From Octopus sinensis (lineage: Eukaryota): 64,000 bases of DNA. Where the stretch lies: positions 27,590,001 to 27,654,000 of the forward strand of contig NC_043017.1 of the NCBI RefSeq assembly GCF_006345805.1, given 5' to 3'. Positions 27,655 to 32,837 of the stretch are shown here, one piece after another; position 1 is the first letter of the stretch, and every line of letters begins with the position of its first letter. Position numbers and translations under genes: made by a program. The notes beneath the pieces are model-generated. The model was not told the origin of the DNA. It saw only the letters and a program-made list of their open reading frames with translations, and made no database searches.

Positions 27655-28021
27655 TTTTTTTTCTTCTTTCAAATTTGCTTCCATTTCTTGCCGAGTGTCT
27701 TCCCGACACCTAGGGCAAAGAAACTCATAGTATACATTGGTAGGCCATTAAACCAAACTCAATAGTTCGTTCATTTTTTTTTATTTATTTATTTTTTTAA
27801 GTTAAATTAAAATACATGAGCAGCAACAGTTCTCACATCGACACTGCTCTTCTCAATACGTGTGATGTACCAGTTAAGACAATCTTTTGCACTTCTTGCA
27901 GGGATGGTAAGCCAGGGATCATTCTCATATAATTTTCGGTTCACTTCTTGATCATTCCTAGTGCTCCTACGATCACTGGTATTGTAACCGCCTTGAGATG
28001 CCACATTTTCTCAATTTCAAT
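27655..28021 (-). mobile_element. 5'-truncated RLE-type non-LTR retrotransposon (R4/Dong-like) in (TAA)n
   Basis: 28021-27833 translates IEIEKMWHLKAVTIPVIVGALGMIKK*TENYMRMIPGLPSLQEVQKIVLTGTSHVLRRAVSM*; 3' UTR runs into A/(AAT)n; both flanks are TAA repeats. Confidence 0.85.
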
Positions 28022-28044
28022 TAGTTATTATCATTATCATATTA

Positions 28045-28078
<34 letters not shown>

Positions 28079-28132
28079 TTATCATATTATTATTATATCA
28101 TTATTATTATTATTGTTATCATTATATTATTA

Positions 28133-28187
<55 letters not shown>

Positions 28188-28230
28188 CCTCATCATCATC
28201 ATCAGTAGTAGTAGTAGCAGTAGTAGTGGT
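28022..28230. repeat. (TAT)n/(TAG)n microsatellite
   Basis: Direct. Confidence 0.95.
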
Positions 28231-28459
28231 TCCATATCTTCAATATTGATTTCTTAGTTTGTTTATATTGCTCTTCGTTTCTTCTAATTTTTCGTGGTTT
28301 TCATTTTACATCGGTTCGTTTCTCACATCTCTTGGTTTCATACAAATTTGGCTTCTGTTTTTGTTTTTCTCTTTTTATTCGTGTTTAGCGATCGAATTGT
28401 AGCGATATAAATCATACGTACTTTGTTTTCCTACCTATGTCATGAATTCGATTTTTAAG

Positions 28460-28501
<42 letters not shown>

Positions 28502-28559
28502 TTGTATGGAAATATATATACATATAGTTATGCAAATCTCTCTCTATATATATACATAT

Positions 28560-29050
28560 ATATATAGACATGTATCTATATATACATGTATCTATATATA
28601 CATGTATCTATATATACACATATATATATACACATATATATACATATATATATATACATATATATATACATACATATATATATATACATGCATCTATATA
28701 TATATATACATATATACATATATATATATATATACATGCATCTATATATATATACATATATACATATATATGCATCTATATCTATATACATATATACATA
28801 TATATATACATGCATCTATATATATATATACATACATGCATCTACATATATATATGCATGTATCTATATATATATACATGTAACTATATATACATGTATC
28901 TATCTATCTATATATATATATATTATATATATATATACATGTAACTATATATACATGCATCTATATATATATATATATACATGTAACTATATATACATGC
29001 ATCTATATATATATATACATGTAACTATATATACATGCATCTATATATAT

Positions 29051-29083
<33 letters not shown>

Positions 29084-29115
29084 CATGCATCTATATATAT
29101 ATATATATATGCACA
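28560..29115. repeat. TA-derived minisatellite (CATGCATC / CATGTAAC + (TA)n)
   Basis: Recurring catgcatcta and catgtaacta spacers. Confidence 0.85.
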
Positions 29116-29654
29116 TACACATATGTACATGCATATATGTATGTATAATCTTCAGACGTACTCACTAAATATAACATTTTTTTTTTCGCTTATCTTAGTT
29201 CATAACTTTCTAAATCATTCGAGTTGGGATCAATGACATTGTACTAAACAAGTACTTTTTCATCCGACAGGACCGCCATCTTGGTTCATACTTTGATTGA
29301 ATCAATTCGATTCTCGTAACTTTTTTTTCCTCATAACTATTAAACAGTAATACTTGAGTCGCATGAGATTCAGTCATTTTTTTTGTTGTTATTATATGAT
29401 TGTGTTTATTCTTATTTGTTGGAATATTTGTTCCGTGTTTTCTTCTTACTCTTAGATTATTATTGATTAGAGTATTTATTCCCTCAGTAAATTTTTTTTT
29501 TCTTTTTAATGAAAAAGCTAAAAAAAAAAAGTTATTTTTATTTAATACTTTTTTTTTTCATGAATGATTATGGTTGGCGTATAATGTGTTTCTGATTCTG
29601 CGTCTATGACTATGCGAATAAGTGTTTGTATTTAATCTTTTGCGCATAGTTATA

Positions 29655-29685
<31 letters not shown>

Positions 29686-29713
29686 CTATATATAGGTATG
29701 TATATATACTTAT

Positions 29714-29749
<36 letters not shown>

Positions 29750-30464
29750 TACGTATAGATACTTCCATAAATGTATGTATGTATGTATATATATATATAT
29801 ATATGTACATATATATATATATACGTATATAGATAGATAGATGTTTAGACAGACATATATCAGTTTCTTTTTTATGCGCTTAATGAAATATGTATGAATA
29901 TATACACGCGTGCACGCATACACACAATGCATATAATATATATATCGACTATTTTACTTTAGCGTTTTGTATTTATTTATCTATAATTATTCGTATGTAG
30001 GTGTGTGTATTTGTACGTGTATGTGTGTTTGTGTGTGTGATATTATTGTGAAACTGTTTAAAAGCTCACAATTTCTAAAGTCTATTAAAAATGAAATGTT
30101 TATGGATATTTTGAATATTTATGGACATAGTAAATATTTATGGATGTGATTATTATTCATAGATGAAATGATTAATAAAGCTATTGTTTCTTGGTGACTG
30201 CCAGAATTTAAACTAAAAGCAGTACTAGAAGAAGAATTGAAATTTCGTTTTGGAAATAAATTCTTTAAAGAATTTGATTTCATGATTCCTGTTAAGTGTC
30301 AAATGGTCTAATAAATTACTGCAGTGCCAATTATATGAAGTAGAAGTTATTGCGATGATTGATACGACCTAATTATATATTTATCTAGAATATCTATTCT
30401 TTGTTTCTACGTTTTTCACGCCTTGTATGAGCGTGTATATGAATAGTGTATATATATGTGTGTA

Positions 30465-30517
<53 letters not shown>

Positions 30518-31098
30518 CATATTGTAATATAATATAACCCCTGAGGTATACACGTCTGAGCACTTCTTCGCTGATTACACCTGCTCCTACCTTCCTCTTC
30601 CCTCGTCTCATTCTTCATATTCGTCTTCTGTATATTCTTCCATATTTTCTTAGTTTTTTCCTTCTAGTATCTCAGCATACATAACAGCGCGTCCTTAATA
30701 TCGTCACTGTTCTACTGAGTAACATTTACCACTTCTACTACTACTACTAGCGCAATTGCTGCTGCTACAAATGGCGCTTCTTCCAAATTTTCTTGCCTCT
30801 AAGCAGCATCGGCCTGTTATTGTCGAAGACGAGAGTGCACCACTGAAATAACTTAAATGTCCTGCTGTAAAAAGGTTATTGCTATTTCAAAGACAAGCAA
30901 TTCTTTCATCGCTTCTCCTGTGAACGGGAGCTGAATCTTTGTAAAATACACAAGTATGAATGATTTTTAATCACAAGATTCACGAACCCAGAACCACGGA
31001 CGAATGTGTATAAATACTTCCATGTATGTATATTTGTATGTATGTATATATATATGTATATATATATTATATAGATATATTATATATATATATATATA

Positions 31099-31883
31099 TT
31101 ATATAAAAGGGCTTAGTAAAATAAATTACTTTGCCGCATACGAACTCATTAGAAATAGTAGCTAAAAAAACTTTTTTAAAAACTATTTCTAATACTAAAG
31201 AAAACCTCTCTCATATAGTGTTTGCTCAACTCAATCACGAAAGTATGGGGGTAAAGACATTAAAAAATCAAATGCAAGGTTATTTGAGAACGTACGTTTC
31301 AAGATTAGTCAACTCGACATTTCTATCATCAGCTCAGAACTCTTGGTTTGGATTGAAAACACTGAAAGTGGGAGCATACCCTTCGGGTTCTTATCGCTTC
31401 TGAAGATCGTGCGAAAACTAACAGTGCCAGCAAACTCAAATATGCAAGCGAAGAATTTCTGCTCTCCCCTTTCCACCAGCGTGGGTTAAAATCAGCAAAC
31501 ACTATGCTTTTTCGGTAAAATCCGAGGCATTAAATAGAGAGAGATGAATTATAATTTCAACAATTGAGGGTAAAATTAATTAATTATTAATCAATTTCAC
31601 CAAGTATTCAGTATGCAAAGGGACCATTTAAGGCGAATTCAATTATTACATTATATAAAAGGGCTTAGTAAAATAAATTACTTTGCCGCATGCTGAACTC
31701 ATTAGAAATAGTAGCTAAGAAAACTTTTTAAAAACTATTTCTATACTTAAAGAAAACCTCTCTCATATAGTGTTTGCTCAATTCAACTCACGAAAGTATG
31801 GGGGTAAAGACATTAAAAAATCAAATGCAAAGGTTATTTGAGAACGTACGTTTCAAGATTAGTCAACTCGACATTTCTATCAT
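31099..31883 (-). mobile_element. Partial-tandem (~1.4 units, ~553 bp) non-coding element in (TA)n; Penelope pLTR/retrozyme-like
   Basis: 31099-31329 is repeated at 31651-31883; carries a hammerhead; flanked by (TA)n on both sides. Confidence 0.8.
31285..31336 (-). ncRNA. Minimal type I hammerhead ribozyme
   Basis: Minus strand ugag-CUGAUGA-uaga..guc(gaguu)gac..ucuu-GAAA-CGUACG-UU-cuca; stem III palindrome ACGUACGU; GUU cleavage triplet. Confidence 0.82.
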
Positions 31884-31887
31884 GTAT

Positions 31888-31919
<32 letters not shown>

Positions 31920-32471
31920 CATAAAGATGTGTTAATGCATTTCTTTGTCTTATTTGGACAAGTATAATATTTTACCGTTCGCTAAACCCACACAAGTGTT
32001 TTACCTTTGTGAAACTGGTTATTTTTACACCTTAATAAATTCTGCATTGGTTTAGAATGCGACAGCTTTGATATCCCTGAACTGGGTGTCAGAGATTGAT
32101 TGAAAATACCCTTTCCTTACATCTTACCATATATATATATTGCATACATAAATACAATCATACTTATATTTTTGCATATACAAACAAATATACCCGTATA
32201 TATAAGCCGGCAAATTTTACTAGAATAGTTTTGTTTCGTCTTACTAGACGTCTTCACCAAACCGAACCATTGAAGTTCTATTAACGTTTCCTTAGAGAAA
32301 ATTAATAAATATTACTCAGCCAAAAGATATTGTTCGAAGTTAATGTTAAATAATATTTATATTATATAGATTCGAAAAAAAAATGGACGCTAGTATAAAT
32401 ACACACAGACACACCGACGAAAGCACACACACACACATACACACGCATATACATATATATATATAATATAT

Positions 32472-32502
<31 letters not shown>

Positions 32503-32805
32503 GCGTGTTGTGTATGTGTGTGTGTGTGTATATATATGTATGTATATATGTATGTATATATGTATGTATGTATATGTATGTGTATGTATGTATATATGTA
32601 TGTATATATGTATGTATATATGTATGTTATATGATGTATATATGTTATGTATGTATAGGTATGTATATATGTATGTATATATGTTATGTATGTATTATAT
32701 GTATGTATATGTATGTATATGTATATGGATGTATGTATATGTGTATGTATATGTATGTATGTATATATATATATAAATTGACATTGTATATTCATACACA
32801 TATAT

Positions 32806-32837
<32 letters not shown>

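What the first reader, a model, noticed from the sequence alone, without database searches (positions are those of the whole stretch)
31099..31883. ~553-bp partial tandem with a near-canonical hammerhead: candidate retrozyme / circular RNA
Seen: a 230-bp direct repeat separated by ~320 bp, with no substantial ORF. The minus-strand hammerhead at 31285-31336 has a full CUGAUGA/GAAA core, 4-bp stem I and a GUU site. The other copy is cut off inside the core (AUGA remains) where it meets (TA)n. The two cleavage positions (31289, 31843) are 554 nt apart. Inference: the insertion derives from reverse transcription of more than one unit of a self-cleaving, possibly circular, RNA.
Basis: partly seen in the sequence, partly recalled or inferred. 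Interest (0 to 1): 0.75.

Follow-up and report, generated by a model that had tools for sequence, protein, structure and literature searches.

The report
Hammerhead retrozyme copy in TA microsatellite
This is a truncated 1.4-unit copy of a young, abundant non-coding mobile repeat of a mollusc genome that carries a hammerhead ribozyme motif and was likely copied into a TA microsatellite by the enzymes of a Penelope-like retrotransposon; it is a correct catch, but of an already described kind of element.

Summary
Window 31100-31883 is one 553-nt unit plus a 230-nt second unit, flanked by (TA)n, with a complete hammerhead motif on the minus strand (31336-31285) and a second one cut inside its core.

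It is one copy of a dispersed family: 1,567 first-look candidates and 346 exact copies of the 52-nt hammerhead. In 39 loci the hammerhead-sense strand has fixed 3' ends at UAUA-containing sites abutting (TA)n and variable 5' ends. 47 of 63 arms exceed one unit. All 22 two-arm insertions are head-to-head, and 21 pair the two different 3'-end types. These are the marks of Penelope-like element (PLE) integration.

The genome holds thousands of PLE endonuclease candidates, including a young RT + GIY-YIG family that also sits in (TA)n.

The hammerhead is the dimer type: helix III is the palindrome CGUACG and helix I has 4 bp. It is very unlikely by chance, but it has a U·U at 10.1/11.1 and Rfam does not detect it.

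Self-cleavage, circular RNA and the exact partner are untested.

Verdict: a new member of the known animal non-LTR retrozymes. Interest is modest.

The parts
31025..31105 (.). (TA)n microsatellite: left flank of the target. It abuts the element's 3' end in hammerhead sense.
   Evidence: The same (TA)n context is seen at the fixed ends of all 30 listed loci.
31100..31652 (-). Complete 553-nt unit of the repeat family. The RNA sense is the minus strand.
   Evidence: It differs by 2.0% (substitutions) from the other complete units of the 61-unit alignment.
31653..31883 (-). Second, 5'-truncated unit: the first 230 nt in plus-strand numbering, 96% identical to the first unit.
   Evidence: The arm as a whole has its 5' end at q230 and its 3' end at q1/q553.
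31285..31336 (-). Complete type I hammerhead motif. Helix I is UGAG/CUCA. The core is CUGAUGA and GAAA. Helix II has a U·U at 10.1/11.1, then 3 bp, an internal loop, 3 bp and a GAGUU loop. Helix III is the palindrome CGUACG. The predicted cut lies between 31289 and 31288.
   Evidence: The same 52-mer occurs 346 times in the genome.
31839..31883 (-). Truncated hammerhead. AUGA, helix II, GAAA, CGUACG, UU and CUCA remain. CUG and the 5' strand of helix I were lost at the 5' truncation. The predicted cut site is 31843|31842.
31100..31105 (-). 3'-end patch A (RNA ...UUUUAUAUA-3'): the end used by this copy. An internal copy of the patch lies at 31652-31660.
   Evidence: 19 of 63 arms end here, and 9 more end 5-11 nt further on at q542-548
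31550..31558 (-). 3'-end patch B (RNA ...GAAAUUAUA-3'). It is internal in this copy and is the commonest 3' end in the family.
   Evidence: 32 of 63 arms
31148..31193 (.). Internal 11-bp inverted repeat (hairpin) of the unit. It causes a sub-threshold CRISPR-DR50 match.
   Evidence: 29.2 bits against a gathering score of 47; it is paired in the fold
31885..31923 (.). (TA)n microsatellite: right flank of the target, joined to the truncated 5' end.

Best explanation
The 785-bp insert is a 5'-truncated, 1.4-unit copy of a ~554-nt non-coding repeat family that carries a dimer-type type I hammerhead motif on its minus strand, and it was likely made by target-primed reverse transcription of a multimeric or circular RNA at a (TA)n site by the enzymes of a Penelope-like element (PLE). 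That makes it an animal 'non-LTR retrozyme'.

Shown directly:
- the repeat and the motif;
- the family's abundance and youth;
- insertion in (TA)n;
- fixed 3' ends at two UAUA-bearing patches and variable 5' ends on the hammerhead-sense strand;
- arms of up to 17.8 units;
- head-to-head twin arms that use the two different 3' patches;
- coexisting RT + GIY-YIG PLEs that also sit in (TA)n.

Inferred life cycle:
1. Multi-unit copies would be transcribed.
2. Two hammerheads 554 nt apart would pair through the self-complementary GAAA-CGUACG-UU stretch into a double hammerhead and cut after GUU.
3. The 554-nt monomer (5'-OH, 2',3'-cyclic phosphate) would be ligated by a host RNA ligase into a stable, highly paired circle.
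4. A PLE endonuclease would nick (TA)n, and the ...TATA-3' DNA end would pair with a UAUA patch of the RNA and prime cDNA synthesis.
5. The RT would run round the template more than once and stop at a variable point.
6. The second DNA end would often prime on the other patch, giving the inverted arm.

The window copy has only one whole hammerhead and is most likely a dead-on-arrival copy.
For: Family.
- 1,567 first-look candidates. All 39 scored places match, and full units are 95-97% identical to the window unit.
- 346 exact copies of the 52-nt hammerhead and 738 within 3 mismatches, against 0 for the reversed control.
- 1.0% mean pairwise difference between units of different loci.

Integration marks, from 39 independent loci with 63 arms.
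- 3' ends: q451 in 32 arms, q1 in 19, q542-548 in 9, other in 3.
- 47 of 63 arms are longer than one unit.
- 22 of 22 two-arm loci are head-to-head, and 21 of 22 pair a q451 end with a q1 or q542-548 end.
- With the C1 array, 22 of 23 pairs are heterotypic (P about 3e-6 if arms were drawn independently).
- The fixed ends abut (TA)n in all 30 listed loci and in the 11.4-kb, 17.8 + 2.8-unit insertion on C1.
- Of six A/U runs of 9 nt or more in the monomer, only the two that contain UAUA are end sites.
- These features match the published PLE signature: partial tandems, an adjacent inverted 5'-truncated copy, an extension at one end only, and a (TA)n bias (PMC8557442, passages).

Partner pool.
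- PF01541 gives 5,029 candidates; 147 of 150 scored pass.
[quoted passage not shown] It is inserted in (TA)n.

Hammerhead.
- The descriptor hit is unique in the window; 2 of 200 simulations had a hit and 0 of 200 a palindromic one.
- Three PLE-side motifs in the same genome share the layout GAAA + 6-nt palindrome + U-H.
- The dimer is favoured: -29.0 against 2 x -7.2 kcal/mol.
- 6 of 7 variable positions seen across four runs fall in the 14 unconstrained positions of 52 (P 9e-4).
- The layout fits the published description of metazoan type I and PLE hammerheads (PMC4209133, passages).

Fold. The monomer RNA has z = -4.8 with 0 of 100 shuffles as stable. As a circle it gives -138 kcal/mol, z = -4.7.

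Model in print. PMC7229834, sections 13, 14 and 17; the 2026 preprint, sections 12 and 14.
Against: - There is no direct RNA evidence. No listed run is on record as RNA, and all runs are kept as contigs, which cannot show ends.
- The motif has U·U where natural hammerheads nearly always have G10.1-C11.1. Rfam's hammerhead models give nothing even at E<=10.
- The monomeric hammerhead fold is weak (-3.0 against an MFE of -7.2 kcal/mol), and it is not part of the minimum-energy fold of the whole monomer.
- PLE-type minimal hammerheads cleaved poorly in vitro (PMC4209133).
- BLASTN found no similarity between the unit and 20 PLE loci, so the partner is not identified.
- Units within one arm are not more alike than units of different loci (0.86% against 1.03%, not significant).
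- The 17-unit arm shows no clean periodicity. So nothing here separates a circular template from an uncleaved multimer or from template jumping.
- The 39 loci are the best-scoring candidates, so long arms are over-represented.
Confidence: 0.7

Rival explanations
1. The element is mobilised PLE-style, but its hammerhead is an inactive relic or passenger. Uncleaved multimeric transcripts, or template jumping by the RT, give the multi-unit copies, and no circular RNA is involved.
For: - U·U at 10.1/11.1, no Rfam match and a weak monomer fold.
- Published PLE minimal hammerheads have low activity in vitro.
- Autonomous PLEs also form partial tandems, and Naiad PLEs thrive without canonical hammerheads (PMC8557442).
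- The 3' ends are not at the cleavage site.
- The intra-arm divergence test is uninformative.
Against: - All 11 core nucleotides, the helices and the palindrome are intact in 74 of 80 complete motifs and exact in 346 places.
- Variation between runs avoids the constrained positions (P 9e-4).
- The motif lies on the strand that the end pattern marks as the RNA.
- The monomer defined by the two cut sites folds unusually well.
Confidence: 0.2
2. The insert is just the truncated tail (pseudo-LTR) of an autonomous Penelope-like element, not a separate non-autonomous family.
For: Such tail-end copies, with hammerheads in tandem-plus-inverted form, are common. PLEs are very abundant here.
Against: - In 39 loci plus the C1 array, every arm longer than one unit runs on into another 553-560-nt unit. 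None runs into coding sequence.
- The unit has no BLASTN similarity to 20 PLE loci, including 8 with 762-883-aa frames.
- Only 20 of more than 5,000 PLE candidates were compared, so a rarer parent is not excluded.
Confidence: 0.07
3. The repeat is a satellite or local duplication made at the DNA level (unequal crossing-over, replication slippage) or an assembly artefact.
For: It is a tandem layout in a microsatellite-rich region. One 11.4-kb array exists on C1.
Against: - Hundreds of dispersed places on at least 26 large contigs share the same defined ends, the 5' truncation and the inverted twins.
- The family is present in contigs of four runs under four organism labels.
Confidence: 0.01

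Closest known systems
Animal non-LTR retrozymes (Cervera & de la Peña 2020, PMC7229834; Li, Clavereau & Pollet 2026 preprint, 10.64898/2026.07.22.740005)
   Same: - Non-coding, AT-rich unit (34.5% GC) in head-to-tail copies.
- One type I hammerhead per unit.
- Dispersed, multi-copy family.
- A predicted, highly paired monomer.
- Coexistence with autonomous PLEs.
- The unit length is inside the reported 51-972 bp range.
- The published model (a target-primed circular RNA giving tandem cDNA copies) fits the end pattern found here.
   Different: - The hammerhead is not the canonical invertebrate type with loop-loop contacts. It has a 4-bp helix I, a long interrupted helix II, U·U at 10.1/11.1 and a palindromic helix III, and Rfam does not detect it.
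- Expression, cleavage and circles were shown for coral, mussel and axolotl elements but are untested here.
- At 554 nt it is larger than the ~170-400-nt RNAs of the 2020 paper.
Minimal / dimeric hammerheads of metazoan Penelope-like elements (Cervera & de la Peña 2014, PMC4209133)
   Same: - Short palindromic helix III that can only be stable between two motifs.
- Helix I of 4-5 bp and an enlarged helix II.
- Massive copy number.
- Motifs on opposite strands a few hundred bp apart, reflecting inverted copies.
   Different: - Those motifs sit in the pseudo-LTRs of RT-EN elements, and most keep G10.1-C11.1 and an extra nucleotide after position 9.
- Here the motif sits in a self-contained 554-nt non-coding unit, and 10.1/11.1 is U·U.
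Integration signature of EN+ Penelope-like elements (Craig, Yushenova, Rodriguez & Arkhipova 2021, PMC8557442)
   Same: 5' truncation, partial tandems, an adjacent inverted 5'-truncated copy, an extension present at one end only, and a (TA)n insertion bias. The PLE found here has the CX2-5CxxC linker that the paper links to microsatellite targeting.
   Different: The described 'tail' is 30-40 bp. Here the two end types are 91-103 nt apart and coincide with two UAUA patches. The element itself encodes nothing.
Newt satellite 2 / Schistosoma Sm-alpha type tandem hammerhead repeats (recalled from general knowledge and from the introductions of the papers above)
   Same: Tandem units with type I hammerheads whose weak helix III calls for a double-hammerhead conformation.
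   Different: Those are classically described as satellite-like arrays. This family is mostly short (0.1-6 unit) dispersed insertions with clear retrotransposition ends.

Membership tests
Animal non-LTR retrozyme | Non-coding unit of about 50-1000 bp arranged head to tail | tested here: met
   553-560-nt units. The window copy has 1.4 units and other arms have 0.13-17.8 units. No ORF exceeds 90 aa.
Animal non-LTR retrozyme | A type I hammerhead motif in every unit, on the transcribed strand | tested here: met
   All core nucleotides and three helices are present. 74 of 80 complete motifs are intact. The motif strand is the strand with fixed 3' and variable 5' ends. Caveats: U·U at 10.1/11.1, and no Rfam match.
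Animal non-LTR retrozyme | No LTR, PBS or PPT; GC below 50% | tested here: met
   GC is 34.5%. The copies are plain tandem units without terminal repeats other than the unit itself. PBS and PPT were not searched for separately.
Animal non-LTR retrozyme | Dispersed insertions delimited by target-site duplications | tested here: inconclusive
   Dispersal is shown. Duplications cannot be read because every insertion lies in (TA)n.
Animal non-LTR retrozyme | Self-cleavage of the transcript at the hammerhead | not testable with these tools
   Only energetics are available. The dimer gives -29.0 against 2 x -7.2 kcal/mol, and the monomeric hammerhead fold gives -3.0.
Animal non-LTR retrozyme | Expression as unit-length linear and circular RNA | not testable with these tools
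   No listed run is on record as RNA, and all runs are contigs.
Animal non-LTR retrozyme | Coexistence with autonomous Penelope-like elements | tested here: met
   5,029 GIY-YIG candidates, of which 147 of 150 scored pass. There are 781-aa RT + GIY-YIG frames.
PLE-type integration | 5' truncation with partial tandems | tested here: met
   5' ends are spread over the whole unit, and 47 of 63 arms exceed one unit.
PLE-type integration | Adjacent inverted 5'-truncated copy | tested here: met
   22 of 39 loci are two-armed, and all 22 are head-to-head. The C1 array is too. The window copy itself is single-armed.
PLE-type integration | [quoted passage not shown] | tested here: met
   21 of 22 two-arm loci, plus the C1 array, pair a q451 end with a q1 or q542-548 end.
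PLE-type integration | Microsatellite, here (TA)n, target | tested here: met
   All 30 listed loci and the C1 array. The PLE copies L043, L045 and L048 also lie in (TA)n.
Fragment (pseudo-LTR) of an autonomous PLE | The sequence continues into, or is shared with, an RT-EN element | tested here: not met
   No arm in 39 loci plus the C1 array runs into coding sequence. There is no BLASTN hit of the unit in 20 PLE loci. Only a small sample of the genome's PLEs was compared.
Rfam Hammerhead_1 (RF00163) | Score at or above the gathering threshold | tested here: not met
   No hammerhead family is reported at gathering score or at E<=10. Other loci of the same genome do pass (7 of 74 scored).

The most novel reading that the evidence does not exclude
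The near-obligate pairing of the two different 3'-end types in head-to-head insertions (22 of 23) is the footprint of one event. In this reading both DNA ends of a single (TA)n break anneal to two different UAUA patches, about 100 nt apart, of the same circular RNA. Both are then extended round it, giving double-primed rolling-circle reverse transcription. That would explain mechanistically the unexplained 'tail at one end' and the tandem/inverted architecture of Penelope-like elements, using a 554-nt template that is simple enough to test in vitro.
Probability: 0.25. Interest if true: 0.55.

Novelty: new member of a known kind. Interest (0 to 1): 0.3.

Why it matters
Ribozyme-bearing retrozymes and their link to Penelope-like elements are already described, so the class is not new.

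This family is still useful as material. It is very young (about 1% divergence), abundant and short, and it has unusually legible ends: two defined priming patches, variable 5' ends, and twin arms that always combine the two patches.

Craig et al. 2021 name how PLE enzymes make tandem/inverted insertions and why they prefer microsatellites as open questions. A 554-nt non-coding passenger with a candidate partner in the same genome is a convenient substrate for testing them.

It also shows that hammerheads with U·U at 10.1/11.1 and a palindromic helix III escape Rfam-based annotation.

Tried and rejected
- Rfam over the whole window at gathering score, and over 30900-32100 at E<=10, gave no hammerhead. 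It returned only sub-threshold miRNA-like matches in (TA)n and a CRISPR-DR50-like hairpin.
- RNA evidence: no RNA holder is listed among 20 runs. The four runs laid are contigs of 70-220 nt that break at the repeats, so they show neither RNA ends nor bridging of the flanks. I left the second read-laying run unused because it could not do better.
- Partner by similarity: BLASTN (word size 7, E<=0.01) of the unit against 20 PLE loci and 6 canonical-hammerhead loci found nothing.
- Circle versus multimer: intra-arm against inter-locus divergence was not significant. The lag analysis of the 17-unit arm showed no clean higher-order period, only weak period-4 sharing at a few columns.
- The ~1,110-nt spacing of exact hammerheads on C1, which suggested an A-B-A-B array, came from scattered mutations and was rejected.
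- Host guess 'penaeid shrimp': PF05927 gave no match, but it rang nowhere in the controls either, so this is weak. The molluscan haemocyanin domain PF14830 is present. I did not go below 'mollusc'.
- The octopus repeat paper PMC13282606 has 0 occurrences of hammerhead or retrozyme (passages). It is relevant only if the host were an octopus, which I did not show.
- The Atlas look-up of the PLE protein was not available.
- Pfam on 12 window ORFs gave nothing above threshold.
- Earlier notes of this scan: none for this genome or this sequence.
- The mismatch-tolerant pattern search lists exact matches first, so it gave counts but no variant spectrum.

Full report
**What is at the locus.** Window 31100-31652 is a 553-nt unit. 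31652-31883 repeats its first 230 nt at 96% identity, with blocks at 552-554-nt spacing. (TA)n lies on both sides, at 31025-31105 and 31885-31923. Nothing longer than a 90-aa TTG-started ORF overlaps it, and there is no tRNA.

On the minus strand, 31336-31285 reads UGAG-CUGAUGA-(25-nt helix II)-GAAA-CGUACG-UU|CUCA. All 11 core nucleotides are present, helix I has 4 bp and the site is GUU, with U17 at 31289. The second motif is cut at 31883, with only AUGA of the first box left, directly against (TA)n. Its U17 is 31843, 554 nt away.

**Is the hammerhead more than chance?**
- A descriptor (CUGANGA, helix II of at least 3 closing pairs, GAAA, a 4-10-nt helix III region, U, H, and helix I of at least 4 bp) hits exactly this one site on both strands of the 64-kb window.
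- In 200 simulated windows with the same dinucleotide make-up, 2 had a hit and none had a palindromic helix III. I wrote the descriptor after seeing the motif, so the figure is generous.
- Three other motifs with the same layout lie next to Penelope-like elements of the same genome. They read GAAA, then the palindrome CUCGAG or CAGCUG, then U-H.
- The stretch GAAA-CGUACG-UU is self-complementary. Two copies of the motif are predicted to pair at -29.0 kcal/mol, against 2 x -7.2 for two separate monomers. The monomeric hammerhead fold reaches only -3.0.
- This is the published picture of metazoan type I and PLE hammerheads: helix III of 1-2 bp with a palindromic loop, helix I of 4-5 bp, an enlarged helix II, action as dimers in tandem repeats, and low activity in vitro (PMC4209133, passages).

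Points against the motif:
- Positions 10.1/11.1 are U·U, where G-C is highly conserved.
- Rfam reports no hammerhead at gathering score or at E<=10.
- The motif is not part of the minimum-energy fold of the isolated stretch or of the whole monomer.

**The family.**
- The unit has 1,567 first-look candidates in the 2.72-Gb genome. All 39 places that were scored match, with full units 95-97% identical to the window unit.
- The exact 52-nt hammerhead occurs 346 times and 738 times within three mismatches. The reversed control gives 0.
- Complete units from different loci differ by 1.0% on average, and the window unit differs by 2.0% from the others (61 units from 39 loci).
- Contigs of four public runs under four organism labels hold the family.
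- Of the 7 positions inside the hammerhead that vary at 10% or more in any of those runs, 6 fall in the 14 structurally free positions: loop 2, the internal loop, 10.1 and H17 (where U becomes A, still an allowed H). One falls in helix I (P = 9e-4). The caveat is that the table omits 15 weaker rows.

**Architecture of the copies.** I mapped 39 independent loci. Four of the 43 fetched loci duplicated other places and were dropped. The 39 loci gave 63 arms.

On the hammerhead-sense strand the 3' ends are fixed:
- q451 (RNA ...GAAAUUAUA-3') in 32 arms;
- q1 (...UUUUAUAUA-3') in 19 arms;
- q542-548, the adjoining AAUAAUU stretch, in 9 arms;
- elsewhere in 3 arms.

Further points:
- These ends abut (TA)n in all 30 loci whose flanks I printed.
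- The 5' ends are spread over the whole unit. Arms measure 0.13-5.8 units and 47 of 63 exceed one unit. This sample is the best-scoring one, so long arms are over-represented.
- A further insertion on C1 has a 17.8-unit arm and a 2.8-unit arm within (TA)n.
- 22 of the 39 loci have two arms. All 22 are joined head-to-head at their 5' ends, with -10 to +21 nt at the junction.
- 21 of the 22, and the C1 case, combine a q451 end with a q1 or q542-548 end, never two ends of the same type (P about 3e-6 under independence).
- Of the six A/U runs of 9 nt or more in the monomer, only the two that contain UAUA serve as ends. The longest run, which lacks UAUA, does not. This points to base pairing with the (TA)n primer rather than A/U richness.
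- The strand that carries the hammerhead is the strand with the fixed 3' and variable 5' ends. That is an independent check of polarity.
- The 3' ends lie 190 and about 290 nt downstream of the cleavage site, not at it. So the template was not a cleaved linear monomer primed at its own 3' end.

**Who moves it.** These marks are the published signature of endonuclease-positive Penelope-like elements: 5' truncation, partial tandems, an adjacent inverted 5'-truncated copy, an extension at one end only, and a (TA)n bias (PMC8557442, passages).
- The genome has 5,029 first-look GIY-YIG candidates, and 147 of the 150 scored pass the Pfam cut-off.
- One family has 781-aa frames in four of the eight fetched loci. 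These are 96-99% identical over 3.4-4.2 kb.
- Its copies also sit in (TA)n and end in ...ACAAAUAUAUA.
- I found no sequence similarity between the unit and 20 PLE loci. So this family is only a candidate partner.
- The same result, together with the fact that no arm runs on into coding sequence, argues against the rival that the insert is merely a PLE tail.

**Most likely mechanism.**

Shown:
- the anatomy of the unit and the motif;
- the end pattern across the family;
- the (TA)n target;
- the coexisting PLEs;
- the unusually stable fold of the 554-nt monomer (linear z = -4.8, 0 of 100 shuffles as stable; circular -138 kcal/mol, z = -4.7 against 60 mononucleotide shuffles).

Inferred, following the published retrozyme model (PMC7229834, sections 13, 14 and 17):
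1. Multi-unit copies are transcribed.
2. Neighbouring hammerheads form a double hammerhead and cut after GUU.
3. A host ligase closes the monomer.
4. A PLE endonuclease opens (TA)n, and the DNA 3' end pairs with a UAUA patch and primes cDNA synthesis.
5. The RT runs round or along the template for a variable distance.
6. The second DNA end primes on the other patch, giving the inverted arm.

The DNA data do not separate a circle from an uncleaved multimer or from template jumping. Intra-arm and inter-locus divergence are alike (0.86% against 1.03%, not significant), and the 17-unit arm has no clean periodicity.

The window copy has one whole and one half hammerhead. In the double-hammerhead geometry only one of the two active sites could form there (inference). 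It is most likely a dead-on-arrival copy.

**Comparison with what is known, and novelty.** The element meets the structural criteria of animal non-LTR retrozymes:
- a non-coding AT-rich tandem unit;
- a type I hammerhead per unit;
- dispersal through the genome;
- coexistence with PLEs;
- a stable fold.

Its length is inside the 51-972-bp range of the 2026 preprint (section 12). That preprint also argues that such elements derive from PLEs (section 14). The functional criteria, cleavage and circular RNA, could not be tested. It fails membership of Rfam Hammerhead_1, while other loci of the same genome pass (7 of 74 scored, including a tandem pair 431 nt apart).

The host is a mollusc: the haemocyanin beta-sandwich domain gives 37 matches. 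Mussel retrozymes are described in PMC7229834.

I cannot say whether this particular family is in print, because text searches cannot find sequences. The work of Lünse and colleagues on dimeric PLE hammerheads is recalled only and was not read here.

Verdict: a new member of a known kind, and a correct first reading. The most original by-product is the strict pairing of the two end types in twin-arm insertions. This may simply be the known 'tail at one end', or it may be the footprint of two primers on one circular template.

Noticed in passing
L071+L072 (G000:C1:157522789-157534226): An 11.4-kb two-arm insertion of the same family in (TA)n: 17.8 units ending at q1, joined head-to-head to 2.8 units ending at q451. 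Its units differ from each other by about 2-5%, more than dispersed copies differ between loci (1%). So it is an older array, or a possible source locus. A few columns share states at period 4 in its right half.
   Followed up: partly
family-wide, positions equivalent to window 31285-31299: 6 of 63 arm 5' ends fall within q186-200, where 1.7 are expected (Poisson P 0.008). Five of them lie at q194-198, inside the palindromic helix III, 5-9 nt upstream of the predicted cut rather than at it. This could be an RT stop at the paired palindrome, or it could be chance.
   Followed up: partly
L048:7429-7771 (plus strand of the locus; 1231-1575 in ORF-sense orientation): Another short hammerhead-bearing partial tandem, about 345 nt long with an internal repeat about 168 nt apart. 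The motif reads CUGAUGA-GAGGUAAACACCUU-GAAA-CUCGAG-UC with a 6-bp helix I. It sits in (TA)n just upstream of a 775-aa PLE, so it belongs to a second retrozyme-like family in the same genome.
   Followed up: partly
L044:584 and L044:6519: Two identical hammerhead-like motifs (CUGACGA...GAAA-UCGGUCCGA-UA) lie 5,935 nt apart as direct repeats on both sides of a 781-aa PLE copy. Related flanking sequence also lies upstream of the PLE in L043. This may be a pseudo-LTR or a neighbouring element.
   Followed up: no
L064, L067, L068, L069/L070 (for example G000:C16:25146363-25146839): Canonical type I hammerheads that pass Rfam RF00163 (CUGAAGAG-ACCC...GGGUC-GAAAC-AUGU-GUC), including a tandem pair 431 nt apart. 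They belong to a different, classical retrozyme-like family with no similarity to the 554-nt unit.
   Followed up: partly
L043:5240-5570: The 3' untranslated region of the 781-aa PLE holds about five degenerate ~90-100-nt tandem repeats, each containing GAUGACGUC. No canonical hammerhead core was found in this PLE family.
   Followed up: no
window 31148-31193: An 11-bp perfect inverted repeat inside the unit gives a sub-threshold CRISPR-DR50 match (29.2 bits against a gathering score of 47). It is a hairpin of the element, not a CRISPR repeat.
   Followed up: yes
window 28020-29839 and 32447-32837: The neighbourhood is unusually rich in microsatellites: (ATT)58, (AT)326, (TA)94 and (AT)199, with a 16-nt TATG-type variant. 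This means there are many potential PLE targets within a few kb.
   Followed up: no
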